Below the pieces are notes generated by a model. That model was not told where the DNA came from. It ran no database searches and saw only the letters and a list, made by a program, of their open reading frames with translations. Shown here piece after piece: positions 821-35,235 of a DNA stretch of 49,132 nt. The stretch covers positions 1 to 49,132 of the forward strand of contig JAHBMJ010000396.1 in the NCBI GenBank assembly GCA_018398765.1, in the 5' to 3' direction. Source of the DNA: Chromera velia. Its lineage: Eukaryota. The first letter of the stretch is position 1. Each line of letters opens with the position of its first letter. Position numbers and translations under genes: made by a program.

Positions 821-906
821 TTACCCTCGACTTCTGTAGTCGCACTTCTGTAGTCGCCCCTCACCGCCGCCTAGCATTGCCACCCCCGACCGCCCAGGGC
901 GCTTCC
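821..906 (+). repeat. Left inverted terminal copy of the origin-like unit
   Basis: TTACCCTCGACTTCTGTAGTCGCACTTCTGTAGTCGCCCCTCACCGCCGCCTAGCATTGCCACCCCCGACCGCCCAGGGCGCTTCC matches the reverse complement of the 96-bp unit. It begins at the TT^AC end of the nonanucleotide. Confidence 0.9.
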
Positions 907-988
907 TGTGATGACCTTGAATTCAATTTAAAACTATGAATGCTAGTATAAAGAAACTGATTATAAACATAGAAATCGAAATTCTACA

Positions 989-2119
989 ATGCCAGTTGGC
1001 GGAGCTTTATCTTGTTTACAAGCTGTCGAAAGGCCCAGTTTGTACGCTTTTCAATTATCGTTAATTAAAAAACCTAAATTATTTAAAGTAGGAATTGCTA
1101 CTAAGGCAGAGCAACGCTTGAACCAATATCATTTGACGTATCCGTGGGGCGTTGACATGATCTGCCTCCTCGTCTTTCCTCTACATTTTCCTCACCAAAC
1201 ACTCAGGCTAGTTGAACAAACATTCTTTGCTAACGTGCCCCTCAAACATCGACTCAATACCCTGACACGCAGCTCACTTCGACGACAAGAGTGGATTGTC
1301 AACTACTCACGTCAGTTGGTGCTGCAATCCTTTTTTGAGCTCAAAACACTGGTCTATGCAAAATTCGGCTTCGAAAGTTATGTCCTGTACTCCGACATTC
1401 ACTTCTCTCCTGACTACCAAATGACCACCCAATCTCCCATCACGTTCACAGATCAGCAGAAACGGGACCCAAAATTTGTGGATGACCACCGCGTTCCGCC
1501 CTCCGTCAGTCTGTCGTCCGTCGAGCTCCAGAGAAACCAGGCGGCCGTCTGCAGGATTCGCAAGAGGGCACAACAGCAACTGAGCAAGATGACACCACAG
1601 GAGGTAGAATGGCATGCGGGATTCGGATTCAAAGCATGTGATGGAGTTCTTGAAATACTGCACGATTTACGGAGGTCTGCGCACACTTCAGCTCAGGGTG
1701 TCTCACTCGATGCTCATATGACCGAAGGAGACACATGGGAACCAGAAACGAATCTTCCGCCCGATCTTCTTGCTGAGTTCCATTCATCATACAACTCAAA
1801 CGGAGAAAATGAAATCCTTGCGGACAAGATCATTGACATCATGGATGATGATGAGCCTGATGAAAGCGAAGAACAGTCACTGATCCTGCGAGATGCACTT
1901 GCATCCAGCACCGAGAAATCTCAAGCAGACAACACGGAAGAATGCAAGGCAAAAGAGTTGCCTCTCACACAGCAGATCGAACAAATCGAGCGTCTGCGAT
2001 CAGCAGAGCAACGACCATCGTCCCCTCGAGGCGAACACGCACCACACCAGACGAGACAACACGCAACAAAAAGGTTCGTACACCTGCCAGACGGGTGGAT
2101 AAAAATCATACGTCAATGA
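989..2119 (+). CDS. T5orf172/GIY-YIG-like nuclease domain protein with chromodomain-like remnant
   Basis: N-terminal LYAFQ...FKVGIAT..EQRL..Y.LTYP...VEQ...RRQEWI fits the T5orf172 pattern. DTWEPETNL..DLLAEF resembles a chromodomain C-terminal half. Confidence 0.6.
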   Translation: MPVGGALSCLQAVERPSLYAFQLSLIKKPKLFKVGIATKAEQRLNQYHLTYPWGVDMICLLVFPLHFPHQTLRLVEQTFFANVPLKHRLNTLTRSSLRRQEWIVNYSRQLVLQSFFELKTLVYAKFGFESYVLYSDIHFSPDYQMTTQSPITFTDQQKRDPKFVDDHRVPPSVSLSSVELQRNQAAVCRIRKRAQQQLSKMTPQEVEWHAGFGFKACDGVLEILHDLRRSAHTSAQGVSLDAHMTEGDTWEPETNLPPDLLAEFHSSYNSNGENEILADKIIDIMDDDEPDESEEQSLILRDALASSTEKSQADNTEECKAKELPLTQQIEQIERLRSAEQRPSSPRGEHAPHQTRQHATKRFVHLPDGWIKIIRQ

Positions 2120-2154
2120 GGGTGGACATCACACTCACACTCCACTCACCTGAT

Positions 2155-3612
2155 TCACGCACCGCCCAACCTGTCGTCTCCAGAACTTACGACCTCGGGA
2201 TTCTCGTCAAGATGTCGAATGATCGCATTTCTCATGGTGCTGTGGACAGGAACGAGAACGTTCGGATCCTGCCGCTGCCAGAGCACGTTGGCCTCGCACA
2301 GGTAGTCGGAACACTTCTTCAGGCCCTTCTGCTGTCGAACCTGAGCGAGAGGGAGCTCCCAGTTATGCTTCTTCAGCAACCGCAACAAACTCATGCGCCT
2401 GTCCCACACCCAGTCGTCCCACTCCGACTCCGTCACGTTCTTCTTGATCTCATCAAAATCGGGGCCTTTCTGAGCGACAAGCTGCGCATTCAAATATGCC
2501 CTCTTGGCAGCCAGCCTCCCCTGGATTGCCTCGTCCAGCGTCGCCCCTCTTCTGAGCAGCCTGTGGAGCTCAAATAGCTCCCCTACATGCCCCCCCACGA
2601 GATCCCACACCTTCTCAAACTCCTCCTCCGTAAAGATGTTGGGGACCAGAACCTTCCGACCCTCATCTTTCAGCCACTCTTTCACTTCGTACGCTTCGAA
2701 TGATTGCTCGGAAGCCACTATATATTCCAACAACTTGGCCCACAGGAATTCGGAAGTCTCGAAGATGACAGGAACGTTGGAGTTTCCCTGCTTTCGCGAT
2801 TTGAAGCTCGCCAGCAGAGCTTTGAAAAGCTCCGGAGCAAGCTCCTCACCCTCTTCACTCGCCAAATTCTGCGCTTCCCGAATCATCAAAATGGGGCGGC
2901 AAGACGTTTTCTTATGCAGCCTTTCCAAAACCCCCAGAAAAATCTGATATTCGGTCTGTCGGGGCAATTCCCGCTCGCGGATGTAGTTCTGGAGAGCGTC
3001 AAGCCCTGCCTCCAACCCATCTCCTTGGCGGAATGCTGACACCACACCTTTCGCTGTCTGAGCCACTTCCGACGCGCGAATGTTGGGGACACGTAGGTGT
3101 GTACTCCCTTCTTCCAAACGCTCCGCTGCTTCCTCCCCTGCTATTTGTAGGAAAGTCAAACGCAGCCGATCTCCCTCTTGTTGGAGGAACTTCCACAACA
3201 GGCGACCAACGTCTTTCACCCTGTACGGGTCGTCTTTCAAATCCAGGTCGATGACCAGTCGACTGTCGTTTCTCCACTGATCTCTCAGTTCTTCCAAGGT
3301 CCGCGTCTTGCCGACCGACTTTGGCCCGTAGACCATGAGTATGCTGCGAGATGGTTTTTCGTTCACATACCGATTCGTGTCATTCCTGTACTTCAAATGG
3401 TTGAGGCAAGGAAGTTCTTCATCACCATTCCATCTTCTGAGGTGACTGTCAGAAGGACTTTCCTCACTTTCAGCACGTAGGAAAGCTAAAAACAACGTGG
3501 AGGAGCCAGGCCTGGTCGCACTGCGAAAAACCACTTTTGGTTGAGTGAGACGGGGCAAGTGGCGGAAGCCCTCGAGGGACACCACACACAGAATAGACGG
3601 AAGTACTTTCAT
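2155..3612 (-). CDS. P-loop ATPase (archaeal-ATPase/STAND-like)
   Basis: 485-aa intronless ORF with Walker A ILMVYGPKSVGKT, a degenerate Walker B PILMIREAQ, sensor strand VIFETSE and a downstream VGGHVGEL motif. Confidence 0.65.
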   Translation of the reverse strand: MKVLPSILCVVSLEGFRHLPRLTQPKVVFRSATRPGSSTLFLAFLRAESEESPSDSHLRRWNGDEELPCLNHLKYRNDTNRYVNEKPSRSILMVYGPKSVGKTRTLEELRDQWRNDSRLVIDLDLKDDPYRVKDVGRLLWKFLQQEGDRLRLTFLQIAGEEAAERLEEGSTHLRVPNIRASEVAQTAKGVVSAFRQGDGLEAGLDALQNYIRERELPRQTEYQIFLGVLERLHKKTSCRPILMIREAQNLASEEGEELAPELFKALLASFKSRKQGNSNVPVIFETSEFLWAKLLEYIVASEQSFEAYEVKEWLKDEGRKVLVPNIFTEEEFEKVWDLVGGHVGELFELHRLLRRGATLDEAIQGRLAAKRAYLNAQLVAQKGPDFDEIKKNVTESEWDDWVWDRRMSLLRLLKKHNWELPLAQVRQQKGLKKCSDYLCEANVLWQRQDPNVLVPVHSTMRNAIIRHLDENPEVVSSGDDRLGGA

Positions 3613-3907
3613 GACGACGGTTGCATACGATGCTTGCCTGACGACATCACTGGTGGCTCTTATGACTGGCCAAGCCGTGTGGAGTTTTTTTTACTGTCGG
3701 GAAGTCGGAAAATCTAGCGGAAAATTCAAGGAGTGGTGTCTCAGCCGCGTCTCCTTCTATATTGTGTGGGGCCACGGTTATGGCCTGCCGGCCGCGGCAC
3801 ACTAATATCGGGGGCCACGGCATGTCCCATTGCGTGGCTTTAATCAGCTTCAAGAGAAGCCGTCTCCTAAAAAAAAAAGAAGAACCATCGCGCAACAAAT
3901 CGCAACA

Positions 3908-4837
3908 ATGCCACAACCTCAACTCCGAAACTTCTGTTTCACCATTAATAACTGGACAGACGAGGACGTCGAGCGGCTACAGAACCTTCCGTTCTCTTAC
4001 ATTGTCTTTGGAAAGGAGATTTCTGACCGTGGGACGCCTCATTTGCAAGGGTACTGCGAGTTGAAACCTAGGTTGAAACATCCAAGCAAGTTTGAAAGCC
4101 TGAAGAGGCGTCTCACCAACTCTGCCCACATTGAACGCAGAGCGGGCACAGCACAACAGGCTATCCAGTATTGCAAGAAGTCAGGTGACTTCGTGGAGCA
4201 AGGAGATTCTTCCAAGCAAGGAAACCGGTCAGATTTAGATCACAATCGACAGCTTGCTCTAGATGGTGGTTTGCGTGCAGTCTCGCGGATAGGGAACCAT
4301 CAGCAGATCAAGGTCGCAGAACGTTTTCTTGACCATCACGAACCTCCCAGGACATGGAAACCCATTGTTCTTTGGTTTCATGGGGTGACTGGTACTGGGA
4401 AAAGTCGGACAGCTAATTTGGTGATGCAATTCTTGTTCGGTGACGATTATTATCGGAAGTCACGTGGAACGAGATGGTGGGACGGGTATGATGCTCACCA
4501 AGGAGTCATTCTTGATGATTTTCGTGGATCTTGGTGGTCTTTCACTGATACTCTGGATCTACTTGATCGTTATGAGACGAAAGTCGAATTCAAAGGAGGT
4601 TCCAGACAGTTTCGACCCTGGGTCATCATTGTAACATCAGCGGTTCCTCCAGAGACGGCTTACCAAGGAGTTTCCAATGAATGCAACAACCAGTTGCTTC
4701 GTCGCCTTGATGTGACAGTGGATTATACTAAACAACGAACAGCTGGGAGAATTCGAAAAGATTTACTTCATTTTTGTGTAATACTTGGCGGGGAAGCGCC
4801 CCGGGTGGTCGGGGGCGGCAATGCTAGGCGGCGGTGA
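3908..4837 (+). CDS. rep: CRESS-DNA virus (circovirus-like) replication-associated protein
   Basis: RCR motifs I FTINN, II PHLQG and III YCKK; Walker A GVTGTGKS; WWDGY; Walker B ILDDF; KGGS; motif C IVTS; arginine finger LLRRL. First in-frame ATG is at 3908 and the frame is open from 3830. Confidence 0.95.
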   Translation: MPQPQLRNFCFTINNWTDEDVERLQNLPFSYIVFGKEISDRGTPHLQGYCELKPRLKHPSKFESLKRRLTNSAHIERRAGTAQQAIQYCKKSGDFVEQGDSSKQGNRSDLDHNRQLALDGGLRAVSRIGNHQQIKVAERFLDHHEPPRTWKPIVLWFHGVTGTGKSRTANLVMQFLFGDDYYRKSRGTRWWDGYDAHQGVILDDFRGSWWSFTDTLDLLDRYETKVEFKGGSRQFRPWVIIVTSAVPPETAYQGVSNECNNQLLRRLDVTVDYTKQRTAGRIRKDLLHFCVILGGEAPRVVGGGNARRR

Positions 4838-5134
4838 GGGGCGACTACAGAAGTGCGACTACAGAAGTCGAGGGTAATACTTGGTGGGGAAGCGCCCCGG
4901 GCGGTCGGGGGCGGCAATGCTAGGCGGCGGTGAGGGGCGACTACAGAAGTGCGACTACAGAAGTCGAGGGTAATACTTGGCGGGGAAGCGCCCCGGGCGG
5001 TCGGGGGTGGCAATGCTAGGCGGCGGTGAGGGGCGACTACAGAAGTGCGACNNNNNNNNCCCGGGCGGTCGGGGGCGGCAATGCTAGGCGGCGGTGAGGG
5101 GCGACTACAGAAGTGCGACCACAGAAGTTGAGGG
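4778..5134 (-). repeat. 96-bp tandem array with CRESS nonanucleotide AAGTATTAC (minus strand) and iteron-like CGACTACAGAAGT doublets
   Basis: GTAATACTT occurs at 4778, 4874 and 4970 (period 96). An N gap at 5052-5059 hides the true copy number. Confidence 0.9.
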
Positions 5135-5640
5135 ATGCTTTGCCCGTGACGTAGAGGCACATACGTCAACTACGCCAGAGCGCGGAAAACAAACAAACAA
5201 AACACGAACACAAACAAGACGAGGTAGAACAGGACAACTACCGAATATGCATGGCTACGGAGGTGTATGAAAGGGTGCAGCGGAAGAGGACCCGCTCCTC
5301 TAGCTTTCTTGCTTTCATGCCTAACTCTTCTTGCTCTCCTGCCTGGCTGAGCCTACGCCCACCCAGCAGGAGACCCCTTGTCTCCTGCTTCTCTTTCTTA
5401 TCACCGCCCCATCTAGTCGCCTATCTGGGAGAACAGATTAACGAGAGAGAGAAACGGATAAAAGGGACGAACAGTACCTCTGGCCTATCTAGTTCCTTTT
5501 ATGCCCAAACCCAAACCCTAGTTGTCCCCACCCTAAGCAAAAAACAAAACCCTATACACGCCTACCTGCAAAGGGACGACAGAAGGGAAAGAGCAGACGA
5601 CAGAAACAGAACACAAAAGAGAGAAAGAAAAAGCCCCGCA

Positions 5641-5652
5641 CCTCTCCCCTCC
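5641..5652 (-). promoter_or_regulatory. Polypurine tract of element A; candidate 3' LTR starts at 5640 (TGCGGGG...)
   Basis: The minus strand reads GGAGGGGAGAGG immediately followed by TG, just downstream of the RNase H. Confidence 0.6.
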
Positions 5653-5673
5653 AGAAATTCCACGCCGCCGGAT

Positions 5674-7347
5674 TCATGCCATCTCTCCACTGGGGAGGGC
5701 GCACTTGGTCATCATGTTCACCACGTTATTCGATCGTACAATTCACTGGAGATCTGCCCCAAGGACACGCATCTCCTGAATATACCACTCTAAAACGCCC
5801 TGCATGGTCACATCGGTCTGGGCCTTGCCAGACCGGAACTGGTCGTAGAGGGGGCCGGAGTCCGTGTAGACGATCACACGCACCTTCTTGAGGCCCCATA
5901 TTACCTTAACGAGGGCAACGATGCCGAAGAGCTTCTTGAGAAGAAACTCAAAGGCGTGCACCTCCCCGGCGGTGGAAGACCTAACCTTCCTTCCCGCCCT
6001 CTTGGTGGCCCACGCGATCCAGTTCTCTAGGAGGGACCGCAGGTCCCCTCGCAGCTCGATCGAGTGTAAGATCCTGACAACATAACCCAACCGTGCAGCG
6101 TAAGTCGCGAACTTGAACGCTGCGTCGAAGTACGCATGTACGACGGGCACGAGCCCCACGCTCATGAAAACCCGCTTATCAGGGTGCCCCTTCAGCATCT
6201 CGATGATGCGCACGACCATCTTGAAGACGCGCCTGGAGGGCTTTGAAATCGACTGCGCTACCGTGTGGCCCCACACCATACGGAACGGATTCATCCTCAC
6301 CCCCCACTGTAGAGTCCCGACTCCAGCACGGATCAGCTTCTCATACTGGTTGTCGACCTCTTCCTCGCTGGAGAGCTCAACACTCTTGCCGTCCAAACCC
6401 TTCCAGGGTTTGCTTGGACGCTTCTCCTTCAAAATCTCCCATAGAGGAGCGGTGTTGGTGTTCTCGAGGTACGAGACCTGGGAGAGATGAATCTCCTCCG
6501 TGGAGACTCTGAAGATATCCACTCCAGAAAACTTCCTCTCTGATCCCTCCTTAATCACACACACGGACCCAAAGCCCAGCCTCTGGTTGAGGGTCTCCTG
6601 AAGGGCCTTGTGCTCCTTTGGAGGAGCTCCAGTCAGCAAATCGTCTATCCAATTCATGACGATGGCTTAGGCTCTCCCTCTCTCAGGGGGAGCCTTGACT
6701 GCGATGGCCGTGTCCACACGCTTAAACCCCAACTCCTTGCATACCCCCTCCAACTTATGATCGAAAAGCTAGGCCGCACAGGGCAGTCCGTAGAGGCCCA
6801 TCTCCACCAAGTATGTACCCCCGGGCTCGTACTCGGCCACCATCCTCCTCAGCTCCTCGTACTTGTCGTCAGGGATGTCCTTTAAGGGGTTCTCCTCAGG
6901 GACTCGAGGCAGCACAGAGGGCAGTGTCGCGCCAACCCGCTTGGCGTTGTGATCTTTGGAGGTCAAGAAGGTAGCGGTCACATCTGTCGCCCCCATCTCC
7001 ATTCCTATAGACACAATGAAAAGGCAGACGGTGTTGATCCCCGCGACGGATGGCGTTCCGACGTAGGTGTTAACGAGTCGGCCATCCAGGAAGCCCTTTA
7101 TGAAAAACCTCGCCTTAGGCTTCCAGGCCCCATCGTCCATCTCTTTCTAAGTGCATTGCCAGCCCATGCCGACGACCGCCCGAACCTCGTTCCTCTTGAC
7201 CCTCCTGCCGAGCATCCGATTTCTCACAATGTTTACCAGCCACTCTTTCAGGGCAGCGAGCTTGTGAAACGCCGAGTCGATCTCCTTCTTTGTGGCGGGG
7301 AGCTGGGTAGAGCCCTTCTTGAAACGGCTCATCTCCTCCTCGTACAC
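5674..7347 (-). pseudogene. Copia-type reverse transcriptase and RNase H (element A)
   Basis: RT motifs WKPKARFFIKGF, DVTATFL, LYGLP and WIDDLL; RNase H motifs AYFDAAF, SSTAGEV, VYTDS and NMMTK. In-frame stops interrupt it. Confidence 0.85.
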
Positions 7348-7485
7348 GGCGGCAGCTCCCGTGAACAGGAATCCTGACCGAGGGTTCCTGGATAAAAGGC
7401 AAAACAGGTGAGGAAGACCGCACCACCTACTCTTGGTGGGGCTTTTGAGCGTCCCAGCCCATTTGGGACTGCCCTCTTCCCTCTC

Positions 7486-10400
7486 CTACGCCATCGCCCC
7501 AGCGAACGATGGAATGCCTCTCTCCTCCTGGAAATTATCATTCCAGTTCCTCCCCATCACCTCGGGCACTCTCCTTGCTCGCTCCTCCCTCAAAACCTCT
7601 ATCGCATAGAGGGTGTTGAACCGCTCCCACTGTGGGCCCTGCAAAACCTCATCTACCTTGTTCATCTCCTCAACCTCCTCCTTGGGCGGATTCTGCCTCA
7701 CGGTGGGTCCTTCTCCTGCCCTGGGAAGTTTCCAACCCCCCAGGACACCCCACTCTTCATCCGAGCAGCTGTTGTCACTCCCGAAGCCCAGGCCGCTTGC
7801 TTTAAACGTTGACAAGCTGGCATCTGAGACATACCCGTCCTTGTCCGTAGACACCACCAGAGACGGAGGCTCCTCATCCGTCTCCACATTCTCTGCAATC
7901 AGGCCTAGTGGCTCAACTCCCCCAACCTCATTCCCTTCATAAGATGCCCCCTCGGCAGCAGGAGGACCTCCATAATGCTCCGCTCGCTCCTCTCCGCTTA
8001 CGTTCGAGGGAATAACAGGTTGAGACTCAGCAGCCTCGGGGACAACACGTAACTCCCTTTTGACAGGAGGCACAGCAGGGATGACAGAAGAGGAAGGCAC
8101 AGCAGAGGAAGACGACGATGTGGAGGGTTCTGCAGAGACCGTATCTGCAGAGCCTTTCGCACCCCCTACCCTTTCTTCCTCCGGCAGTTTCTAAACTCCA
8201 ACTTCACGGAGCTGGACGGGGTCGTCAATCATACGCACAGCCTCTTCGGGGATTCTCCCTCCCCGAATGTCAAACATGTGCTTGATGGATGACTGCTTCA
8301 CTCTCCCGTCCCTGATTTCCTTGACCTTCAAAGCGAGGGGGTCCCTTACTGAAAGATCAGGTGCGAGGTCTGCCCATCCGTAGCTCCTACGCGCCTTTGA
8401 ATGGAGGGCCACAAGCTTTCTTCTGTTATCCCTCTGGACAACTGCCCTCTTCACGGGGTAGGCCTCCATTGGCTGACGATCGTACGAGGAGAACTCCAGC
8501 GCAGCTGGACCCAAAACTCTCCTTTATTCGATGGGAGTTCCTTGTTCGGACCGGGACCTATCTGCGCCTCCCGGGTGCGCGGAAGGGTCAATCAGCCTAT
8601 CCTCCGGTTCCAACTCGTCACCTCTACCCCTCTCGGCAGAAGACTCTGCCCCTCTTTCGTCGTCTCCGTCATCCCCGGAGAAGATCCTTCTCCCAGACGA
8701 TCTCCGCGGCCGTCTGCGAGCCGATAGATAGATGCGGGCCCTCTCCCCAACGGAGATGCCGTGATGCAGAGCTTGGGAAGATCCGGGAGGAACGTCCCCC
8801 CCGCCTTCTCCACCTCCCTCATCATCAGTTCCCCTGCCCCAGTCTCCTCCAGAATAACCCCCTGAAGGTGGGTCGTGTGGAAAATCGTTTGGGGAAGTGT
8901 CCTCTTGAACTCCATTTCCGTCAGGATGATCCCCCCCGTTATCTTTATTGTCTAGGTCTGACCCGCTCGATCTGCCCTACAGCAGAGACTCAGAAGCGAA
9001 GGTGTCTTCCTCAGTTTCCTCATCCTCAGCACCCGAAACACGAGCGCGAGGGGACCCTTCCCCTCCCCTTCTCTCTCTGCCTGTCTTTGCCATAGACGCA
9101 TCTGAAAGCTCCTCCGACGCTCGGTCCCCGCGGCCGACCTCGTTCTTGTCGACCCTGTCTCTGGGGTCCTTGGGAGGGACGACCTCTACCGTGGGGTCTT
9201 CTCTCTCGAACCTGATAGGGCGCGATCGGTCATCGTGGTGCTTCGACTGGTGGAACATGCACCTAACCTGGTAGCACATCTCACACACGAGGCACCACGC
9301 TTTCTCATCTTCGTTGCTTTCTGTCCCCCGGAACACGTCCTGAAAGTGTTCCATCATCCGATCTCCTCCTTCCGTGTACGCCCGGATGGTATTGCTTGCA
9401 GCCACCGGATCCGGGTCGTAGGAGCTCGGAAGAACATAGTTCTGGAACTCGATCCGCTTGTACCCTAGGGCCTGGCACTTATATTGGGTTACAGGTTTCA
9501 ACACCCCCTATACATAAGGGTATACCCCCCTGTAATGTTACTCTTACTTCAAAAGTGGTTCCAATCGATCAATCTTATCAGGTTACATCTAAAAATATTG
9601 AAAACATCTTCTGTTGATTGAGGTTACATGAGAAACTAACAAAAAACGATATGTCCCTTTCACTTTGTAGCCAAACCCCTTGTAAACTTGTAACCTGTAA
9701 CCTAAAATGACCCTCTTCAAAAGTTATATAGCCTTCGTTTACATGCATTTTAAAGTGTTTTTGAAGTGATTTAAAGAGTTTTTGAAAGTTGACTTTTTGG
9801 TTGGTTACGGACCTCAAAACCGCCTGTAACCTTGTAATCTGTAACCTTGCTAGGGGACATATATAATAAGAGGTGTAACCTCATGTAACCACATAAGCTA
9901 TACAGTAAAAGTGATTGATTTCGAAGTAACTCAACATGCCGGACCTCCAGCTTGTGTGAAAAGCTCGTCCAAATGTTTTTTGATTCATTTTTTATGTTAT
10001 TTTTACACTTGTAACCCTATATGAGCCCAACAGTGCCCCCCCCTAGCTTGTACCCATAGTACCTCTCAGGAAAACTAACAGCCATGGACAGCCCGACTGT
10101 CCAGAACTTCCCCTCCAAAGGGGTCCAGTATACATACTCGGCTCCCGGGGGCTCAATCTGAGACAGACCGTCTGTCTTCCTCAATTCCCTGTCAGCCTCG
10201 ATCCACTTCTGCTTGGGCCTGTCCAAGTAGTTGAGCACCGTGTGCATGTAGTATCGCCCCCTACGCTTGCCCCCAGCCGTATCGGGAGCAATGGAGACTC
10301 GGAGACTCATCGAAGTGGTCCACCCCTCTGGGATCTCAATCCGACAGGGCTGTGGAGGCGAGTGCAGATAGACGCCCTGGTTCTGTGACATGATCTTTTT

Positions 10401-11800
10401 GAGGCTCTCCTCCTCAAGATTGAAACCCATGTGTCCAAGGAATACCCCACGTGCTTCTTGGATTTCGTCCTCCGTCCTTGTTGCACTCCTGCTTCTCCAC
10501 GAGTCCCTTTGACGTCCGTCATCAGTCGGGGTGTGGAGTAGTTCTTAAAGGTATCCAGAACCTCTCCCTGCATAATCTCCCCCAAGTCGGAGTGGAGCAT
10601 GAGCACGAAACGACGAGTCTAAGCGTCATACACCCCCCGGTGGTATGTCATGAACACCGGCCGCTTCACCTTCTAATTGTACCCCAGGGGCTCCCCGTCG
10701 GCCCCCAGAAGGCGGTTCCCCTTCTTGTCACAAAAGACGGGGCCTGAATCCTTCACCCGCCTTCCCCGTGAAGGAGCGCGAGTGTGCTTCCGCACCGTCC
10801 CAGGCGTGTGCAGCACCCCAGGGCCTGACGGGTCCAGAATAGTCCCCTTCATTGAGGAGCCGAGCGGGACAAAGAAATCCGGCAGCGGCGACTCCCCGGA
10901 GTCGACGGAAGCCCTGTTGGACACAACAGGAGAGGGAGACCGTGCTCGGGCACCCGCCGCCCCTGCTTCTCTTACCGAGGCCTCGGCCTGAGCAGGGGAG
11001 GGGTCGGAGGGTTCTACAGGAGCAGGGGGAGGGAAGGAGGGAGGCAGTGCAGAGGGGAGGGCAGATGAAGACGATGACGAAGCCGATGCCTGCGCCTCCA
11101 TGCTCGAAATCTCTTGATAGCCCTCACGAAGGTGAGTGAGGCGAGAGGCTTCCCGTAAGCCCACAACACCTTCGCCCTCATCCGCCAGTTGGAAAGAAAA
11201 TTTCCTCGCCGGCCACTGTGTCTCTCGCTGCAACCCCTCGTACCGTCCCACCGAAGAGGTGCCCGGAAGGACTAGAGGGAATCCCCTGTGATCGAGGTCG
11301 CTCCTACCTGCCCGTCTGCGGTAGCGAGCACCTGTGTCCCCCTCCTGCCTTGCAGAAATTTTTCAGAGTCAGGGATCCTCCTGGTCTCCACCCGCCGGAG
11401 CCAGGAGGATGGTTCCTTCTTGATCAAAACGAGGCCCCCCCCGAAGGCGGAGGTTGTTCAGGACCGTCTGCAGATGCTCCGAATGGACTTGCAGGACGGT
11501 AAAACGTTCCCCTTGAATGTTTTTCTCCTTGTGTCTGTGAAGGACCGCGACAACATCGTGCGTGAGCGGAGCCAAAAACTGCATAATGACTCCGCACAAC
11601 TCCATTCCCAGGGAAGGTATGGACACCACCGCTGTGTCCCCCACTCTCCATCCAGGAGGCGCTCTCCGGAATGTCAGGGTAAAAGGGATGCCCCCCACCG
11701 TTCTGTGAAATGCACAGGAATACCCCCAACGTTCCTCCATCGCCATGAGGTGAATCACAGTAAGGGGAAAACGGTGGTTCGGGTCCGACATGAGGAAGGC
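7486..11800 (-). pseudogene. Extra coding region of unknown function between integrase and RT of element A
   Basis: A chain of same-strand ORF fragments (7486-8100, 8191-8514, 8592-8915, 8977-9504, 10017-10430, 10307-10606, 10673-11251, part of 11369-12043). It includes a [15 protein letters not shown] cluster. Confidence 0.5.
9486..10017. mobile_element. AT-rich MITE-like insertion in element A
   Basis: Inverted termini GGGTTACA...TGTAACCC, many internal GGTTACA/TGTAACC motifs, (T)ATAT on both flanks, and a sharp drop in GC content. Confidence 0.75.
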
Positions 11801-13901
11801 TACTCCCTCCCGATTGCTGCAGATGCAGCGCTCAACTAGAGCCTGCAGACCCTTTCCAACGTTACACACGGTACGGAGGTCCCTGATGGTACTCAATGGG
11901 GTGGAGTCTGGGGGACCCGTCCCTCCGGAGCCACGACTGGAAGGAGGCCCCCGCTCCCACCTTCTCTTCATCCATGCACACCAGGTGCAGACGCCCCAGC
12001 CAGTGAGCAAAGTAATACGCGCAGTCGATGAAGGAAGCCTCATCTTTCTCCTTAGCTGGATGGGCCAGAGAGAACCCAGCTCCTGGCTTGTAGAGGATGA
12101 CCATCATTCCGAACCCCCCTGTCTCGGCCTTTGCGAGACGGTCCTTGAAGAACCAGATATCGATGATCCAGACCGTTCCCTTGATCGGCCTCCAATCTGC
12201 CGACAACTTCTCACTCCTTTTATGGATGCGGGGAGTGATCGCGTTCTTCAGCTGACAGAGGAGATACGCAGAAACCTACCCTCTGCAGTCCTCATCGATG
12301 TCAATGCCCTCAGCCGTGAGAGTCTCCTTGAGATCATCGAAGTTCTGGTGTCCGTAGCGCACGTGCAGTGCCATCACCTCACGCTTCTGGTCGACCATGA
12401 CGGCCGAGAAGGCAGCCAGGTACGTCCGTTCGTACCCGTAGTCCCATGGTTTGAAGTGGGCTGCACCTCCAGCATCAAACTTTCTTACCGCGAGAAAGGG
12501 ACCTTGCTGACAGTGGTCCGTGTCCGCCAGCTCCGAGGCAGTCCATCCACCCACGACCCAATACGTGATCGGGTAGGCAGCCACAGGGACCTCAACGCCG
12601 TCGGGTATGGCTCTGAAGTCCTTCTTGGCCGACTGCTTCTTCTCCGCATCGGGGAGAGGGGTTCGGGGAATCCTCTCATAAGGATCCCTCTGTTGCCTCA
12701 GCTTTTGCACCTTGTTCTGCCGGTCCCACACCTCCTGCAGTGACTGGAACCAGTACCCACATGAACCTCCTTGGGGACCGCCCCCATGGAAGTGCTCAAA
12801 GGACTCGTTCGGGACGGCTTTGTGGTGCGGGCTGCGGTCATACACTGCTCGAGGGAGGTGGTTGAGGCCGTACCCGTCTGGCCTGTCTCCCCAGGGCTTG
12901 TGGATGATGCAGGCCTCCAGTGCTCCCACCTTGAAGGGGGTGTCCATAACCTCAACATCAACCTGCAGAATGCCCTGACGCACCCCCTCCTGGTACATCA
13001 GGTCCATAGACAGCCTCACCCTATGTGAGATCTGCCTCTCCTCCTTCGTTTTCTCAGCCCACACACAGTAGGCGGGAAGGACATCCTTCGGCGAAGAACG
13101 AGGGACAAAGAGACGTGCACCAGGAGCATTACGAATCAGCACGTCAGGGAGATTCGGCTGATCGACCGTGTGGAGGAAGCAGGGGACGACAATGTTCTTT
13201 GGAGCGCCGGAGGGGTCGTGAGTCCCGAACTGGATTCCAAGAACCGTAGGACAAAAGAACACTGCCTCATCCCCCAGTCCCCATGACTGGAGGGGCATCT
13301 CCAACTGCACCTTCCACTCAATGAAATCCTGTCCCGTGATAAGATGCTCATAGTGCCGATACCGCGTCCTTCTGGGTAGCCCCCCGTCTGGGGGCCCGTC
13401 CCCCTCCTCCCCAACACCCCCGGTGAACAAACCCGTCCAGTCCAGGATATTCGGCCCCCCAAAGGCACGGATGAGGCTCCTCACCTTCCTCCAGGAGATA
13501 AGGTTCCCGAACGTACAGGAGTCAATATGGATTTTAAAGACCCTGTACTTGACGAGTTCGGGGTTTTGGGATCTCGTATTTCCCGAAACCTGGTAGACCT
13601 CGAACTTCTCCAGAAACTCAGCCCGTCGCCGGGTCCTGCTCAGGTCGTTCATCAGTTCACTCTCGTACTGGGAGACCATGTAGATAGCAGACTTCGAACC
13701 AGAGGGCACCGCACCCATGGTGATCTCGTCCTCCGGACCCCGCGTGCAAGAGATGGCCTCAGGGAGATGGGGGTCCTGCTCCTCCATCATATCTCTGATG
13801 CGCTGGACTCCTCCTGCAGTGAACTCCGACTGGAAGGCTTGCATGACCGTCATGCAAGTCTCTAAACCTGCAGGGAAGATAGCCCACCCTATATGTTCCA
13901 A
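11800..13901 (-). pseudogene. Aspartic protease and integrase of element A
   Basis: [14 protein letters not shown] at ~13501-13540 (DSG-like). LHVRYGH...C..LLC zinc finger near 12360-12250. WIIDIW and VCMDEE are candidate catalytic Asp motifs. Confidence 0.7.
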
Positions 13902-14447
13902 GCCTGTCCGTTCAGGCTCATCGGATAAGATCGTTTGCCAGGCTCCACGGACTCCTTCTCTCCATACATCGACCCCTGTGTAGGTCCCAACAGGATCTCA
14001 GGCAGACAGGCGCTCCATAGCCCCATCATGCCATACATGGAAGGTCGTTGTGTTGTAGTCGGGCGAGTACTTGGCTCCAGGCTCATAGTACATAGGGAAA
14101 CCAAGCTGGTCTGCAAAGTGAACCTTTTCGAGAGACCCCTCCCCGTGAGTGATCTTCTCCTCACCCTTAGATGCGTCGATGGTCAGGTTGAACGGGTCCC
14201 CCTTCCTACGTGAAATGCCACCCATCACTACGACATCATCATCATCGTCCTGACCCCCAGGACCGACAATCTGCGAGGATACAGGAGGGACACTACCCCC
14301 CCGCTGCGCCTGTCCGGAGTCTGAGTTCTTCTTCTCGAAGTTCTCGTTGTTGAACCTGCCAGGAGAAAGGGTACGCCCACCACGGCCATGACCCCCACCG
14401 CCTCCTCTCCCCCCTGAGCCGCCCCTACGACCAGGATAGGGAGACCC

Positions 14448-16886
14448 TCAACGGTCTCCAGAGCCGCCTCCACGGCCTCCTCCTCCCGGAGGACCCTTAG
14501 AGCGGCCCTCCGAGCCGCCCCTGTCCTGCCCGGTCTTGTCTATCTGCTTCATCATCCACCGCTTCTTCGCGTTCTTGTCAGGGCAGTTGTTGGGAGCATG
14601 GCCCATCGTTCTATACGATGGGCAGCCGTCCTTCTTCTGAATCCAAGGACAGGCCCCATGGCCCCCCCACTCTGCATATCCGTCCAGACGGTTGCATCTC
14701 AGGCACTGCCCATCGCGGTACCCGTGGGGAAGGCTCTTCCTGCTGGCAGGATCCCAACACGCTTTGTCCCACAAAGACCCAAACTCTCCATCCCACTGAC
14801 CGGGCTTGATTGGAGTTTCTGCAGGTCCTGCCATCGTCCCGATGAACGCATCTGACCCGGATCTATCCCGGTGTCGGACACCATATCGATCGAGAACGGG
14901 GTTCCTGTTGGGGCCCCTAGGGTTGACAACGGCCTGAGTGGGAGGACAGTCCTTTCCTTCCACCCCCTTGTCATTGTATCTACTGAAGGGAGCAGAGGAA
15001 TTGGACCCAGGAGAGTGCCCCCGATTGGAGCTCCCCCCGCCATCCCCCTTGCCGAAACCCCCTCCAGCACTGCCCTGCCTCCCGCGATCAGAGTTGCCCC
15101 TGCCCTTCCCACCAGAGTCAGGGGTCTTTCCACCTGAAGGTTTCCCTCCCTTTGCCTTGGAAGGGGACTTCCTCTGTGGGACTCCTCCAGGCCCCGCGAA
15201 TGCCACGAAAGGAACCTTCGAAATGATACCCCCCCACGAGGCACCCCCGGAGTCCCTCACCCCGAAGGTTGCCGCCTTCTGTTCCCACTCTCTCTTCAAG
15301 TCCTCGACTCTTTTAACCAGACCCCGGTCCCAGGCATCCCCGAGAGACTTGTTGAAGGTCTCCGCCTGGGCAGCGATGACGTGGATCTCCTTAATGATCT
15401 CCACTTCGCTGGTGAGGTCCACCGGGTTTTGCCTCTCCTGCCACCTTATGATGAGGTCGTTTGGCAGGTGTGCCGTTAGGAGCCCGAGCATGTACTTCAC
15501 ACCAAGCTCGTGGACGATGTTCTCCTCAATCAGGTGGTTAAGGAGACGCTTGTGATGTGCGAGCAGCTCTGTGTAGGTACCGAACCGACAGGGCTTACAA
15601 GCAATCCTCTCATACTCCAGGACGAGGGCAGAGGTCGAGTACTGGATCGTTTTGAAAAAGTACGCAAAGATCATCGCCACGACCTTATCTCGCATCTCCA
15701 CAAAGGTCCTCGGGACCGATGTCAAGATCTCCTCCAGGGTGTAGGCGATAAAGGGATCCTCAGGGTCACACTTGGGCCTCCCCTGAGTTCCACTCGACTC
15801 CCTAACTCCCAGGAAAGAGAAGATGTCAGGTGCACCCGGCGCCCCGACATCCCCAGTATGCACCCCCCTACCTATAGACACCGTCGCAGGTTCAGGGGGA
15901 GACACAGCAGGATACACCCCCCCACCCGTAAGGGGGGTCATCTGGAATACCAAAGGCAGGCGACCTTCAGTAGTACCTCTAGGGACACCCTTGGCCTGGG
16001 GAGGAGGAGAGAGCACGTCTATCTCCTTGCAGAGTTTGTCGGCCTGCTTGTTCAGAGCAAACCCATCAGATACCAGCTGGTCAATATGACCTTGCAAGAT
16101 CGCTACCAGCGTATCCTTATCAGCCTTCTCAGCGTCAAAGACCTCTTTCTTCTCGGCCCAGGATGCCAGTTCTGATGCGTACGCCTCTTTCCCTTCAGAC
16201 CCCTCAGGGAAATTGTCCCTCTTGGGCATGCTACTCAACACGTCATTCTCCTCCTTCTGGATCTCTAGAATTTAGAGCTTGTCAGCACCTCGTACGGCGT
16301 CCAGACCCGATATCTGGGCCACGAGGTCCTCGTACTGCTTCCTTTTCTTCGCCATCAGGGTGGTGTCAGATCGCACACCGACCACCTGCACCCCCCCATT
16401 GGAACTGCTACTGCTACTGCTACGGCGGTCCCGCTCATCAGAGGCCGGACGCTGCTCACTGGACATGGGGATGGACATCTGACGGGAGGTGTCTGGTCCC
16501 GCTCCTGTCTCCTCCTCCGTCTTTACTTTCGTCTCTGTTGAAGCTCCCTCATGGAGCTCCCCACCTAAAGAAAACACAACAGGGCGAGACAGAGAGAGGG
16601 AGGAGGGTTCCTTCAGAGTCTGCAAGCAGAGGATCTGCTCGTTCAGAGACTTCAACTGGGGACCAGAGATTCTCTCCTTCTCTTGACGTGAGAGAAGCTC
16701 CCTGATTTCTATGATCCTCGCCTTGCCTATTCTCAGGACGTCGGTCCGCTGCAGATATCTCTTCATCCACTCCGCATCGGGCGGAGAGACGCAGTCCACA
16801 ACGTGCCTGTGGAAAATCCGGAGCTGCTTAGAGACTTCCAAGCTGAGGTGGGGCACTCGTTCCACCACCTTCTCCAGCACTTCCAC
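14448..16886 (-). pseudogene. Gag-like protein of element A
   Basis: ORFs 16272-16886 and 14448-16241 are in frame across a single stop. They give a coiled-coil N-terminus, a Gly-rich region and C-terminal CLRC...H..C / CPSY...GH....C knuckle-like motifs. Confidence 0.6.
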
Positions 16887-18067
16887 CTCGGTCCTTGCGA
16901 CGTAGTGCTTAACGTTGACCCCTACCTTGTTCTTGTTGGTGAGGGTGAGCTCGCCGCACCACTCATCCGAGTCCCCGAGAATGGCAACAGCATCTGCATA
17001 TTACCGTACCCACTCGATGATGTCCGCATCGTCCGTGAGGCCGAAGACGCCCACGGTCTTCGCCTCCATACCCTTGATTGCGATGCACCCATGGAAAGCG
17101 TCCTTTTTAGGACCCATGGTAAGTTACCTGCAGTAGGGAATCGGGAATACAACAAGGGGAATGTTGTCAGAATGACAATGGGAGACTCTCTCAGTGACGG
17201 TGCCAGTAAAAAGTAGAGTCTCACCTCTCTTGAGATTCCTTTAGTGGAATCCTATGGGCCCTCCCGTGTCGATCCTCTAGCCTATCCAGAAGACTCCTCA
17301 GACTGCTATACTCCCGAATTCCTGGCCCTCTCCTATTGGAGGACCACAGCGAATACGTCTCCGTGACGTACTCGTCTAGACCGATACAGATAATCAGAAA
17401 TAAATACCTGATCAGTCTCTTCACCAGACAGAAAATCTATGAACCCCCACAGTCCACAGTACGCTCCTGCTGGTGGCCTCGTGCAATACTCAGAGCACAA
17501 GAGAACCACAGAGACACATAAGGCACAGTACAGATCCTACACATGAAGTTCTGTCAATCCCTAGGTCACGTCTCTCATTCAGACGGACGGTAACCGCCGT
17601 GCACATCTATCTGACTGTCTAAAAATTAATTTGGGACCGGAATTAATTCTGATGCCTCCGATGGCATAACTGCATCATCGGCCTATTTAAATCCCATATG
17701 AAGCCTCAGAGCACACACTACCACGGTGAGTGCCTCGGGTGTATTTCTTACGCCAAAGTGGATGCAGGCCATACCATGGAACTCACAACATGCACACCTC
17801 TATCGCAGGCGCCCCGCCACCCCATGTGGACGGGCCGCTGCGTGTGCGTCGCTCCTTTCTCTGGCTCGGGGCGAAGGGACGAATGGAAATGCCGGGACCG
17901 GAATTCATCCTCCGCGAATCCGACCAGGAACGGGACCGTCGTTTTCTTTCACATTTGTCAGTATATGCATATGATGAGATAGGATAGGATATAATATTTA
18001 GTATACAATATTAAATTGATTGATTGATTGATTGATAGATAGGTTCTGCAGTAGGCCTTCCCGCTAC

Positions 18068-18689: not shown

Positions 18690-20356
18690 CCTCCCCTTAC
18701 CCGTGGACCTTCAATCTATACGGATCCCCGATGACTCCTCAACAGCAGCAGCAGCAGCAGTATCCGGCGGCTCCTATCATGATAACCAGAAGAAGCAGTC
18801 AGGCACAGAAGATCCTCGATGAAGTCCCAGTCTTTACCGCAGAGCCTCCCACAGACGATCAGAAGCCCCACAAGCCCCACCTCACCATTGACATATGGAA
18901 GTAGTAGATAGAAGATGCTATTGCGGAAGCGAAGACAATCGATGGTACCCACACTTTTGGTCCCTTTGATCAAGCCATCTTAATCAAACGCATAATTTCC
19001 CTTTCTGTCCGAGACGTTCTGAAATTCCAACCCCAATAGGAATCGAAGCAGAACGACCCAGAGTGGCTGCTCGAAGAACTGGACAGCCTATACCTTGGAG
19101 CAAAGCATGAAAGGGTCTTGATTTCCTGGCAGGAGGTGAAGTCCCTCTCTCCTCGAATCCGAGAATCCATCGTAGACTACTTCGCCCGCTTCCGTAAATC
19201 CCTAGGTCACCTCCGAAAGCTCATCCGCGCTCTCTTGTTCGGAGATCCATCCATGACCGAATTGGAATACGCTTTCCTGCTTGATTCCCTTCCTGCAGCG
19301 AGCGCGGCTAGGAGGTACGTTCTCATAAACATCACAGAATGCACTCCACTTGGTTTGTTCGAATGCTTGCGTAGGTACGAGCAAATTTACCTCCAGCAGT
19401 CCCCCACTACTTCCATTTGCCTAGCGACAGTGCCCGGACAGGGACGCACTCCCTTCAAAAGAGCTCCCGCTCCTTCTTCGCACAAGCCGAGTTCTCAACC
19501 CGCAAACCGTAACTCGCAGCGAAAGGATTCTAACCGCAAGAAGAATCCTAATCCGAACAGAGCCGAGCTTTTGCCTTGCAAATTCTGTGAGACATCGCAT
19601 CCGGTTGGGCAGCATACTCGTTATATCTACTGTTACGGGGCCTCACACAAAGACCGCTCAGACTCAGCCTGTCCCGTTGTCGCACACAAGTGCAAATATG
19701 GAAAGGTTAGACACTTTGAGCATGCGCGTCTCTTCGAAAGAAACAAGGCAAAGGATGCCAACGGAAAGAGTGCACACATCAAGCATTTTTTTGTCTCGTT
19801 GACAGCCGAGGATACTGGTGCAGCATTTGACCTGTATACACATTGGGGGAAAAATGATGGGGCAAACGTAGATGCAGTGGGGGAACATTATTTGAGGACA
19901 GTCATGGACATTGCTTACACAGTACGAGAGCTCCCCGCCCCCATCCTTGTTTACACCACAAAGGAGACTGAGATTTCTGTGTACACAGCACAAGAGGCCG
20001 TTGTTCCTCAGATAATTCTTGGACCTCTCTGAGAAACCGTTTCTTTCCTAGTTCTTCCCGACTCCCCTGTTCCTTTCCTCTTCTCCAAACCGCTTTGCAA
20101 GCGGCTCGGGGCTGATTTCACCTATCGCACTGGAGAGATGGGAGTTTGTGAAGACGGAGATAAAACCATTGCCAGCCTCCCCTGGATCGATGTGGGACGA
20201 TATTTTGCTCTGCCTTTCCGTCAGAATCCCCCCAAAAATCTCGATAAACCCTCCATTATGATGGTAGTTGAGGGACCTGCGTCTCCCGCTATTAACTCCC
20301 TACAGGAGTTTGCCGTCGATGATACAGACATCAGGCCTGTGCAAGTGGGTGCATAG
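18690..20356 (+). pseudogene. Gag/protease region of element B
   Basis: Broken ORFs. ESIVDYFARF is gag-like, and there is a CKFC...H...H / C..H..C cluster. Confidence 0.6.
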
Positions 20357-20545
20357 CTGCATGCAGATGACGAGACCGAGTCCGTCATTGAGAATTCTGA
20401 CGCAGACGGGTCCTCAGAGGAATTAGAAGCCAACCCCGATTCTTCTGAGCCTTCTTCTGTCCCCGAAACCATCTCTGCCGTCTTCCTTGAGTCCAGTGAG
20501 GTTTTCTCTTTCCCTCGTCGCAACCTGTATCGTCTTATCCAACAG

Positions 20546-21706
20546 GTGCATTGCGACTACGGTCATGATAGTGTGTCTGAAGTCCTTGCCCAACTCAGTC
20601 GTGTCTTTACCTTTTCTTTTTCTGGACGTACTCTTCGTAAAGTCGTCCGTCGAGTCCTCCGTGCCTGCCCGGAGTGCCCAAAAGTGAAAAGGCCATGCGG
20701 TTTCACTATTCCCGGTGTTTCGTGCACTTGTGGTCCTTATACTAGCTACAGTCTTTGCATAGACAGTCAGTATTTCGGGCCGTCCGAGACCGCATACACA
20801 CACCAGATGTCCATTATTGAAGACACCAACAATCAGGGTTTCGGTCTCCGATATTCTGCTGCCCCTACTTCTGAAGAGTCCCGCGATTTCCTCCAATATG
20901 TCTGGGTTTCTCGGTATGGTGTTCCCATTGAAATCCACTGTGACCCAGGTCTAGAGTTTCAAGGAGTATTTAAAGAGTATGTAGAGTATGAGTTGGGCAT
21001 CAAAGGGGGGCCCACTTATACTCCAGTTAACTATTATGATCCGATTGTGGAAAGATGGCAGCGTGAAGCCCTTGCCATCATGCGTGCGACGCTCCTTGAG
21101 AAAGGTCTCTCCCCTCTTAAATGGCCAAAGCTCCATGACCTCGTCATTTGGCGTTTAAACTCTCGCCTCACTCTTACAGGCAAGCCCTGTCAGACCCAGT
21201 TGCACTCTTTCCCTCCTTTGCCCTGTTTTCGGGAGTTTTTCACTTCTGTGCGTCGCCCTTCTCCCCCCTCTCTGCAAACCTTTGAGGTGGGAGATATGGT
21301 TATATACAACCAAGGTGCGGGCCTGGGAGGCCGTCGATTGGGCATAGGTCACAAGTGCGGTCCTGTTTATGTACCGTACAGGGTGACGGAGAAGAAGAGA
21401 AACCACTTCTATGAGCTCAAAGCACTTGATACAAACACTTGCCCATTCTACACAACCGCAAGCCCCCACCAACTCGGTCCCACCACTGTTCCCTTTCCAG
21501 ACCTGGATAGAGATCCAGTTTCTTCCGACCCTCCCGCACCCTCAGTGCTGCCTTCGACTACTCTAGTACCACCGGATATACCTCCCATTCCCTCATTTTC
21601 TGTTCCCTCCGCACTTTTGCCTCCCAGCAGTATGGTTGTCGTATCTTCGCCAGAGCATTCGCTACTCTGGATAGAAGAGATATGCGGTATGATTCCTTCA
21701 GGATAG
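20546..21706 (+). pseudogene. Integrase of element B
   Basis: HCDYGH...CPEC zinc finger; LCIDS, IHCDPG and VERWQRE form the DDE triad. Confidence 0.9.
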
Positions 21707-22249
21707 GGGTCAAGCTGCAATGACCCTCTGTACAAGATTCACGCTTGGGGAAGTCATCAGCGCTCAGCCCTCCATCGCCGCCAATGGCATCCCGGGCATT
21801 ACATCCGCTCTGGGGCGTACGTGCAATACGACTCACGGGTCTGAAACAAAGACTCTGAGTTGATGGAAGCCAATCACTCGCGCATCAAAGCAGCCAACTT
21901 CGAGATGGTATCTGGATAAGGAAACAGAGGTTCCCGTCTCCCCCCTGATCTGTGTGAGCGCTTGGCAGCAGGCATTGATGGATGCCGCTTCGGAGCTTAT
22001 CCTGGGGAGAGTGACCCCGATCCGTCTGTCCCTGTCTCTGTGTCCTTTCTCTCTGCCGCGTTCACAGAAATCAACGCTGCCACCACCCATCAGCCCGTGA
22101 AGATGCGCGATCTTCCCCCTAATGAGCAGGTGAAAGTTCGAAAAGCAGATAAGTGAGAGGATAAAGGGTGGGCTGATCTGAAAGTTTACGAAAAGGTCCC
22201 TCTTTCCGCTGTCCCCCCTGGAGTAACCCGAGTGCCGCTGAAGCGCGTC

Positions 22250-34730: not shown

Positions 34731-34779
34731 CAGGGCTGGCGACAAAGCAGGAAGAGACAGCGAAAGAGACGCAGCGAGA

Positions 34780-35235
34780 GCAGAGAAACGAATTTTTTAT
34801 GACAGCCAGCCAGCCATGATTGTATCAAAACACGTTTGTCGTGGCAAATGCCAGACTGCGTGAGGGGGGCAGCGAAAGAGTTTGAAGGAAGAGAAAGCGA
34901 CGGAGAGGGAGCAGAGAAACGAATTTTATATGACAGCCAGCCAGCCGTGATTGTATCAAAACACGTTTGTCGTGGCAAATGCCAGACTGCGTGGGGGGGG
35001 CCCCGAAAGAGTTTGAAGGAAGAGAAAGCGATGGAGAGGGAGCAGAAAAACGAATTTTATATGACAGCCAGCCAGCCATGATTGTATCAAAACACGTTTG
35101 TCGTGGCAAATGCCAGACTGCGTGAGGGGGGCAGTGAAAGAGTTTGAAGGAAGAGAAAGCGACGGAGCGGGAGCAGAGAGACAAATTTTAAAACTTTCAG
35201 CCATGTTTATATCAAAACACGTTTGTCGTGGCAAA
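34780..35235. repeat. ~131-bp tandem minisatellite, about 3.5 copies
   Basis: GCAGAGAAACGAATTT...ATCAAAACACGTTTGTCGTGGCAAATGCCAGACTGCGTG recurs near 34780, 34911, 35042 and 35172. Confidence 0.9.

What the first reader, a model, noticed from the sequence alone, without database searches (positions are those of the whole stretch)
821..5134. Capsid-less CRESS-Rep element bounded by inverted origin arms: candidate new HUH transposon or linearised ssDNA replicon
Seen: an intact circovirus-like Rep, two other intronless ORFs and no recognisable capsid, enclosed by ~86-bp inverted repeats. The left repeat starts at TT|ACCCTCGACTTC and the right array ends at the equivalent position (GAGGG, 5134). 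Established: CRESS Reps nick the nonanucleotide at TATT^AC and stay covalently bound to the 5' end. Helitrons use a different (PIF1-type) helicase. Inference: both termini sit at the nick position, so the Rep may have mediated integration, and joining the two ends would rebuild a long origin hairpin. This suggests a mobile Rep + nuclease + ATPase unit rather than a random viral fragment.
Basis: partly seen in the sequence, partly recalled or inferred. Interest (0 to 1): 0.9.

Follow-up and report, generated by a model that had tools for sequence, protein, structure and literature searches.

The report
Capsid-less ssDNA virus turned genomic repeat
A small single-stranded-DNA virus derivative, lacking a detectable coat gene and carrying a host-type ATPase gene, sits in several diverged copies in a protist genome with its ends at the viral cut site, and likely spreads by using its own replication enzyme, like a virus on the way to becoming a jumping gene.

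Summary
823-5134 carries an intact CRESS Rep (HUH plus SF3 helicase), a divergent ATPase_2-like gene, a weak T5orf172-like ORF and no detectable capsid. It is bounded by an 84-nt arm and an inverted array of 96-nt units that repeat the viral nick site without its stem.

Contigs of two DNA runs show a family: at least three Rep variants joined to arrays, a diverged copy with the left arm beside ORF1, deletion derivatives, and arm depth far above the interior. Putative RNA runs cover Rep and a spliced ATPase transcript. The host is very likely Chromera velia, where such Reps are already listed as viral fossils.

The clean-transposon reading is weakened. The two flanks belong to different repeats and are not one target site, the junctions are 1-3 nt imprecise, an 8-N gap splits the right array, and no end-to-end junction was seen.

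Best reading (0.55): a linearised, capsid-less viral replicon whose Rep likely copies out nick-ended molecules that host repair reinserts. It works like a rolling-circle transposon but is not a Helitron or Replitron. Transposition itself is not shown.

The parts
823..906 (+). Left arm: one 84-nt origin unit, starting at the nick-equivalent base and ending before the next nonanucleotide; inverted relative to the right array
   Evidence: 1 mismatch in 68 nt to unit 3; 2-4 mismatches to the other units; linked to the interior by contigs
821..822 (.). Left junction; other copies of the flanking repeat match through 821 and then continue with unrelated sequence (empty site)
   Evidence: table 7 (2 contigs, agreement 0.98)
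989..2119 (+). ORF1, 376 aa; N-terminal T5orf172/MUG113-like (GIY-YIG-type) domain predicted, acidic low-confidence tail; TATA-like box at 947-952
   Evidence: Pfam E 0.055; Atlas 0.91 for residues 10-150; no homologue found; model pLDDT 36
1121..1548 (-). Inferred 3' untranslated exon of the ATPase transcript, antisense to ORF1; a poly(T) loose end sits at 1121
   Evidence: tables 5, 7, 8 (runs X3, X7, RNA by guess)
1549..2149 (-). 601-nt GT-AG intron just after the ATPase stop codon
   Evidence: table 5 (X3; a similar skip in X7); splice sites
2155..3612 (-). ATPase_2-like P-loop protein, 485 aa, of a protist family; lies where the closest free viruses have their capsid gene
3613..3907 (.). 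Intergenic region between the divergent ATPase and Rep genes; likely bidirectional promoter
   Evidence: sequence; no putative-RNA cover at 3753-3939
3908..4837 (+). CRESS Rep, 309 aa: HUH endonuclease with one catalytic Tyr, plus SF3 helicase; motifs intact; last residues are read through the first array unit
4778..4786 (-). Innermost nonanucleotide, at the Rep 3' end on the Rep-antisense strand as in the closest free viruses; no stem
4780..5051 (-). Tandem 96-nt origin units (two whole, one partial), each with two 14-nt direct repeats after the nick; further nonanucleotides at 4874-4882 and 4970-4978
5052..5059 (.). Assembly gap of 8 N inside the array; unit arithmetic needs about 37 nt plus a multiple of 96, so the array length and the link to the right flank are unresolved
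5060..5134 (-). Outermost partial unit, ending one base short of the nick-equivalent position, with 2 nt of microhomology to the flank
   Evidence: (table 7: 10 and 8 contigs show the flank's empty form)

Best explanation
This is a capsid-less derivative of a small ambisense CRESS DNA virus, present as a family of diverged copies in the host genome, that likely spreads when its Rep nicks stemless origin units and nick-ended linear copies are joined into new sites, probably by host repair. Shown: intact Rep, no capsid, host-type ATPase in the capsid gene's place, origin-derived ends at the nick, several copies, a far more abundant origin unit. Inferred step 1: Rep binds the 14-nt repeats, nicks a nonanucleotide in the right array and stays on the 5' end, while host polymerase and the Rep helicase displace the minus strand. 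Inferred step 2: without a stem, termination into a circle is inefficient, so linear, truncated and concatemeric products form; the 96-nt origin-only arrays would be non-autonomous passengers. Inferred step 3: the inverted left arm arose when the growing strand switched onto the displaced strand and ran off at its Rep-bound end, which explains why it stops exactly at the nick and lacks a nonanucleotide. Inferred step 4: such molecules are captured at breaks with 1-3 nt of loss or gain. The ATPase is likely cargo.
For: Rep nests among free small CRESS genomes. In 11 of 13 loci of that clade the best nonanucleotide lies on the Rep-antisense strand, and 8 of 13 have an Arg/Lys-rich capsid-like ORF on that strand, which is the layout here with the ATPase in the capsid position. 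The sequence after the nick matches L016 for 14 nt and sister L019 for 9 nt. 124 of 159 relatives have a stem of 6 bp or more; the element has 0-1 bp. In porcine circovirus the stem serves termination, while the octanucleotide and downstream repeats serve initiation, and template switching regenerates the palindrome (PMC2690592, passages). Three Rep 3' variants (0, 38 and 41 differences) each join an array; a diverged copy has the left arm beside ORF1; joints 3521>4854 and 4572>4888 mark deletion derivatives. Summed arm depth peaks at 12,873 against 29 for the adjacent interior (inflated by contig overlap, not a copy number). Both host junctions lie within 1-3 nt of the nick (p about 0.0013).
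Against: No new insertion, extrachromosomal form or Rep activity is shown. Only two host junctions were seen base by base. Three further contigs end at 823 in X1 (agreement 0.67), and one may be a tandem variant; 24 loose-end rows were not displayed. Some arm contigs end elsewhere (844, 873, 880). Copies differ by about 10-15%, and some carry frameshifts (table 4), so many may be old. No full-length second copy could be seen, because only short contigs and no genome were available. The right flank may belong to another locus across the N gap.
Confidence: 0.55

Rival explanations
1. A true two-ended HUH transposon: Rep itself cuts at inward-facing origins at both ends and joins them to a target by strand transfer.
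For: Both termini are at the nick position on opposite strands. A joint 981>4890 on opposite strands, 95 nt or more on each side, may be a copy whose left end is also an array with an intact nonanucleotide; the table allows a second reading. Three junctions between unique DNA and the unit fall at unit position 82-84 (906, 4888, 4890).
Against: The empty form of the left flank does not continue into the right flank, nor the reverse. The junctions lose or gain 1-3 nt. This left arm has no nonanucleotide to nick.
Confidence: 0.18
2. A viral fossil amplified passively: one or a few defective genomes integrated once, and host recombination, segmental duplication and satellite expansion made the copies; Rep is irrelevant today.
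For: The locus lies among high-copy repeats (flank depth up to about 3,100 in X1). Mismatched flanks fit ectopic recombination. Copies are diverged and partly broken. The top-listed differences show no significant excess of synonymous changes (6 of 16 and 4 of 11 against about 23% expected). Nicotiana GRD repeats are a precedent reported to drift neutrally (PMC5014472, passages).
Against: Two unrelated host repeats are each joined at the nick position. Rep motifs are intact, and Rep is covered in putative RNA of two studies. Host gene capture and origin reiteration are easier to explain in a replicating element.
Confidence: 0.2
3. An episomal plasmid-like or satellite replicon (circular, or linear with a panhandle) that still exists in the cells; the chromosomal copies are its occasional accidents.
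For: Minus strand reads as one genome length from nick to nick; joined ends would restore a stem like that of L016 and L019. A capsid-like fossil is listed elsewhere in C. velia (PMC10193959 supplement), so a helper virus once existed.
Against: No hairpin or end-to-end joint among the listed joints of two DNA runs (contigs drop rare forms). Contigs exact to this copy have ordinary depth (about 21-25 in X1). No match in viral or metagenome collections.
Confidence: 0.07

Closest known systems
Draupnirviridae-assigned Rep fossils in Chromera velia (Kinsella and van der Hoek 2023, PMC10193959)
   Same: Same likely host; 8 rep-like rows and 1 cap-like row are listed for C. velia, so the Rep copies are probably already catalogued.
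   Different: In the passages, section 7 and supplement rows I read they are used only as host evidence; no termini, origin arrays or cargo genes are described. I did not determine whether this locus is among the rows.
Nicotiana GRD and Dioscorea EGV1/EGV2 endogenous geminivirus elements (PMC5014472)
   Same: Capsid-less rep plus origin sequence, multi-copy, partly transcribed, proposed to be Helitron-like.
   Different: Those are geminivirus Reps in head-to-tail repeats with a stem-loop origin (EGV1). Here the Rep is circovirus-like, the origin is stemless, reiterated and inverted at the ends, and a host-type gene is carried.
Replitrons (Craig 2023, PMC10288648)
   Same: Eukaryotic, multi-copy, one-Tyr Rep with HUQ motif related to CRESS Reps.
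   Different: Replitrons have no helicase, have short direct terminal repeats, are only weakly linked to CRESS Reps and were not detected in alveolates. This Rep keeps the SF3 helicase and is 50-55% identical to free viral Reps.
Helitrons
   Same: Inferred rolling-circle copy-out, host gene capture (capture recalled), no clear target duplication.
   Different: Two-Tyr Rep fused to an SF1B helicase; here one Tyr and SF3.
Tuber melanosporum geminivirus-like transposon (Liu et al. 2011, PMC3198968)
   Same: Multi-copy Rep-bearing element with terminal inverted repeats and no obvious target duplication.
   Different: It carries two transposase ORFs and an interrupted Rep. Here Rep is intact, no transposase was found, and the inverted repeats are origin DNA.

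Membership tests
CRESS DNA virus | Rep with HUH endonuclease and SF3 helicase | tested here: met
CRESS DNA virus | Nonanucleotide nick site | tested here: met
   three copies on the minus strand
CRESS DNA virus | Nonanucleotide in the loop of a stem-loop | tested here: not met
   stem 0-1 bp against 6 bp or more in 124 of 159 relatives
CRESS DNA virus | Capsid gene | tested here: not met
   profiles of 171 non-Rep ORFs from 159 loci against 63 element frames: best corrected E 0.07, in a shadow frame of Rep; control 8 of 8; Pfam blank for ORF 1942-2577
CRESS DNA virus | Circular genome | tested here: inconclusive
   no end-to-end joint listed; contigs cannot show absence
Draupnirviridae (Rep lineage) | Rep falls inside the family in a tree with reference Reps | not testable with these tools
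   no named references were available; the tree holds only unclassified Reps; the host match to PMC10193959 is a lead
Replitron | Rep without fused helicase | tested here: not met
   RNA_helicase hit E 5e-10
Replitron | Short direct terminal repeats | tested here: not met
   termini are long inverted repeats
Replitron | Multi-copy family with non-autonomous derivatives | tested here: met
Helitron | Two-Tyr Rep fused to an SF1B helicase | tested here: not met
   single YxxK motif and SF3 helicase
HUH transposon (any) | Insertion into a single target site, with a matching empty site | tested here: not met
   the empty forms of the two flanks do not join; the N gap leaves a misjoin possible
HUH transposon (any) | New insertions catalysed by the element's Rep | not testable with these tools
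   needs clonal lines or a biochemical assay
GRD/EGV-type endogenous elements | Capsid-less rep plus origin DNA in many genomic copies | tested here: met
GRD/EGV-type endogenous elements | Geminivirus-type Rep | tested here: not met
   Pfam Viral_Rep, best solved relative a circovirus-type Rep

The most novel reading that the evidence does not exclude
Probability: 0.33. Interest if true: 0.88.

Novelty: new variant of a known kind. Interest (0 to 1): 0.66.

Why it matters
Helitrons and Replitrons are thought to descend from Rep-encoding plasmids or viruses, but their origins are ancient and the intermediates are lost. Here the Rep is still 50-55% identical to free viruses and the viral gene layout is recognisable. 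The changes that would turn a virus into a genomic parasite are visible: capsid replaced by cargo, origin stem lost, origin reiterated and inverted. In a culturable alga this makes the virus-to-transposon step directly testable.

Tried and rejected
No whole genome was held, so copies could only be seen as short contigs. No listed run is on record as RNA; X3 and X7 are RNA by guess, though they give zero cover on the high-copy right flank at 5249-5800 and show a GT-AG skip. Searches for the origin unit found 0 matches in viral contigs and 0 in metagenome contigs. The ATPase found no relative in viral contigs; the alignment query was too variable to run. ORF1 found no homologue among 52 candidates of similar length; its single-sequence model was too poor for a fold search. 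The Arg-rich overlapping ORF 1942-2577 was considered as a hidden capsid and rejected. The synonymous/non-synonymous count used only 27 of the 40 listed differences, out of about 1,200, and was uninformative. Assembly artefact was rejected for the left arm but remains open for the link across the N gap. No target-site duplication is evident in 22 nt on each side. The first tree run timed out; the FastTree run used 67 rows (31 of 120 listed protein hits, 35 locus Reps, and the element). Three look-ups of earlier findings returned nothing. Nine literature searches found no description of this architecture; the library lacks most subscription papers.
Full report
Observation. The coordinates are right. 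An 84-nt arm at 823-906 (86 nt with the preceding TT) is the reverse complement of units in a 96-nt tandem array at 4778-5134, which an 8-N gap interrupts. Between them lie ORF1 (989-2119, +), an ATPase_2-like gene (2155-3612, -) and a CRESS Rep (3908-4837, +). Rep motifs align with those of 22 close relatives. AAGTATTAC occurs three times on the minus strand, once per unit. The left arm begins at the base after the nick; the right end stops one base short of it. Under a uniform model, two junctions this close to the nick have a chance of about 0.0013.

Host. The nearest ATPase relatives are Chromera velia proteins at 71-77% identity, with more distant ones in Chromera, Balamuthia, Hemimastix and metagenomes. 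The host is therefore very likely C. velia, and the ATPase belongs to a protist family rather than a viral one. Kinsella and van der Hoek list 8 rep-like and 1 cap-like Draupnirviridae-assigned fossils in C. velia (PMC10193959: passages, section 7 and supplement rows).

Viral ancestry. The best Rep hits are 50-55% identical and mostly lie on 1.6-1.9 kb contigs. Of 159 related loci, 124 have a nonanucleotide with a stem of 6 bp or more, 111 have an Arg/Lys-rich capsid-like ORF, and none encodes a relative of the ATPase or ORF1. The element's Rep nests in a clade with 13 of these loci. In 11 of the 13 the best nonanucleotide is on the Rep-antisense strand, and 8 of the 13 have a capsid-like ORF on that strand. 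The element has this layout, with the ATPase where the capsid gene would be. After the nick the unit matches L016 for 14 nt and the sister locus L019 for 9 nt, so it is real origin DNA. It has lost the upstream stem arm (0-1 bp). Profiles from all 171 non-Rep ORFs found no capsid in 63 element frames, while the control recovered 8 of 8.

A family, not a single fragment. Eight runs of five studies hold part of the region, all from one organism; one may be the source of the assembly. In X1, three Rep 3' contigs with 0, 38 and 41 differences each run into an array. In X2, a contig with 70 differences and 24 gaps links the left arm to ORF1 (858-1317). Both runs show joints 3521>4854, 4572>4888 and 981>4890. 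An X1 contig spans 845-1010. Summed depth on the arm peaks at 12,873 against 29 on the adjacent interior, and many unit variants join head to tail. This figure is inflated by contig overlap and is no copy number, but the unit is clearly far more abundant than the genes. Two putative RNA runs cover Rep (one contig has 4 differences in 839 nt) and the ATPase. X3 skips a 601-nt GT-AG intron on the minus strand, X7 shows a similar skip, and X7 has a poly(T) end at 1121. The RNA over the middle of ORF1 is thus likely the antisense 3' end of the ATPase message.

Against a clean transposon. Both flanks are repeats whose empty forms are visible. The left flank continues after 821 with sequence that is not the right flank. 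The right flank is preceded, in 10 and 8 contigs, by sequence that is not the left flank and is absent from the window. The two ends are therefore not one opened target site. Either the scaffold joins two loci across the gap, or arrays recombined later, or each end was joined on its own. The left arm is closest to the last unit before the gap (1 mismatch in 68 nt) and farthest from the unit after it (4 in 75), which fits a misjoin weakly. Either way, two unrelated host repeats are each joined at the nick position. The joins are imprecise: one extra base on the left, and one base lost with 2 nt of microhomology on the right. No hairpin or end-to-end joint was listed, though contigs drop rare forms.

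Mechanism. In porcine circovirus, cleavage needs the octanucleotide and downstream repeats but not the stem, which serves termination; template switching regenerates the palindrome (PMC2690592, passages). Reps cleave short stemless oligonucleotides (PMC7826260, passages). Each 96-nt unit has an octanucleotide and two 14-nt repeats but no stem, so it is predicted to initiate well and terminate badly. I infer that Rep nicks in the right array, the minus strand is displaced, and linear, truncated or concatemeric nick-ended products are captured at breaks by host repair. A switch of the growing strand onto the displaced strand would copy it back to its Rep-bound end and give an inverted arm that ends at the nick without a nonanucleotide, as seen. 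None of these steps is shown. ORF1 resembles T5orf172 nucleases only weakly, and no role can be assigned to it or to the ATPase.

Comparison. It works like the rolling-circle transposons but fails their defining tests. Replitrons lack a helicase and have direct terminal repeats; Helitrons have a two-Tyr Rep with an SF1B helicase (PMC10288648: parts 1-3 of 7 and passages). The nearest described cases are capsid-less endogenous geminivirus repeats (PMC5014472, passages) and a truffle element with inverted repeats and separate transposases (PMC3198968, passages). Nine searches found no account of this architecture.

Verdict. A real, expressed-looking, multi-copy virus derivative with origin-defined ends: new variant of a known kind, interest 0.66. 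The chance that it is an autonomous new HUH transposon group is about 0.33.

Noticed in passing
L100:3478-3710: A free relative in the same Rep clade has a direct repeat of about 96-107 nt just downstream of its origin; the repeats lack the nonanucleotide. Origin-proximal reiteration may occur in this virus group before integration.
   Followed up: partly
window 906, 4888, 4890: Three different junctions between unique DNA and the origin unit fall at unit position 82-84, inside a small hairpin just upstream of the nonanucleotide; a possible template-switch hot spot.
   Followed up: no
proteins P0123, P0258-P0261: ATPase homologues with repeated C-terminal modules lie on five metagenome contigs of 10.4-11.0 kb; the uniform size hints at another mobile element carrying this family.
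   Followed up: no
window 5135-17000 (-): A large degenerate retroelement-like region with several long ORFs and no Pfam hit in those scanned; its end at 5135-5800 is very high-copy in the DNA runs.
   Followed up: partly
window 19040-23740 (+): Broken Copia-like element: integrase zinc-binding hit and RVT_2 hit.
   Followed up: no
window 34762-35235: Tandem repeat of 131 bp, 3.7 copies, 90% matches.
   Followed up: no
window 43916-45298 (+) and 47775-49130 (-): A 2OG-Fe(II) oxygenase ORF and an ankyrin-repeat ORF, ordinary host genes.
   Followed up: no
window about 4060: This Rep copy has an in-frame 12-nt insertion that other copies in all four runs lack, as do the 22 aligned relatives.
   Followed up: no
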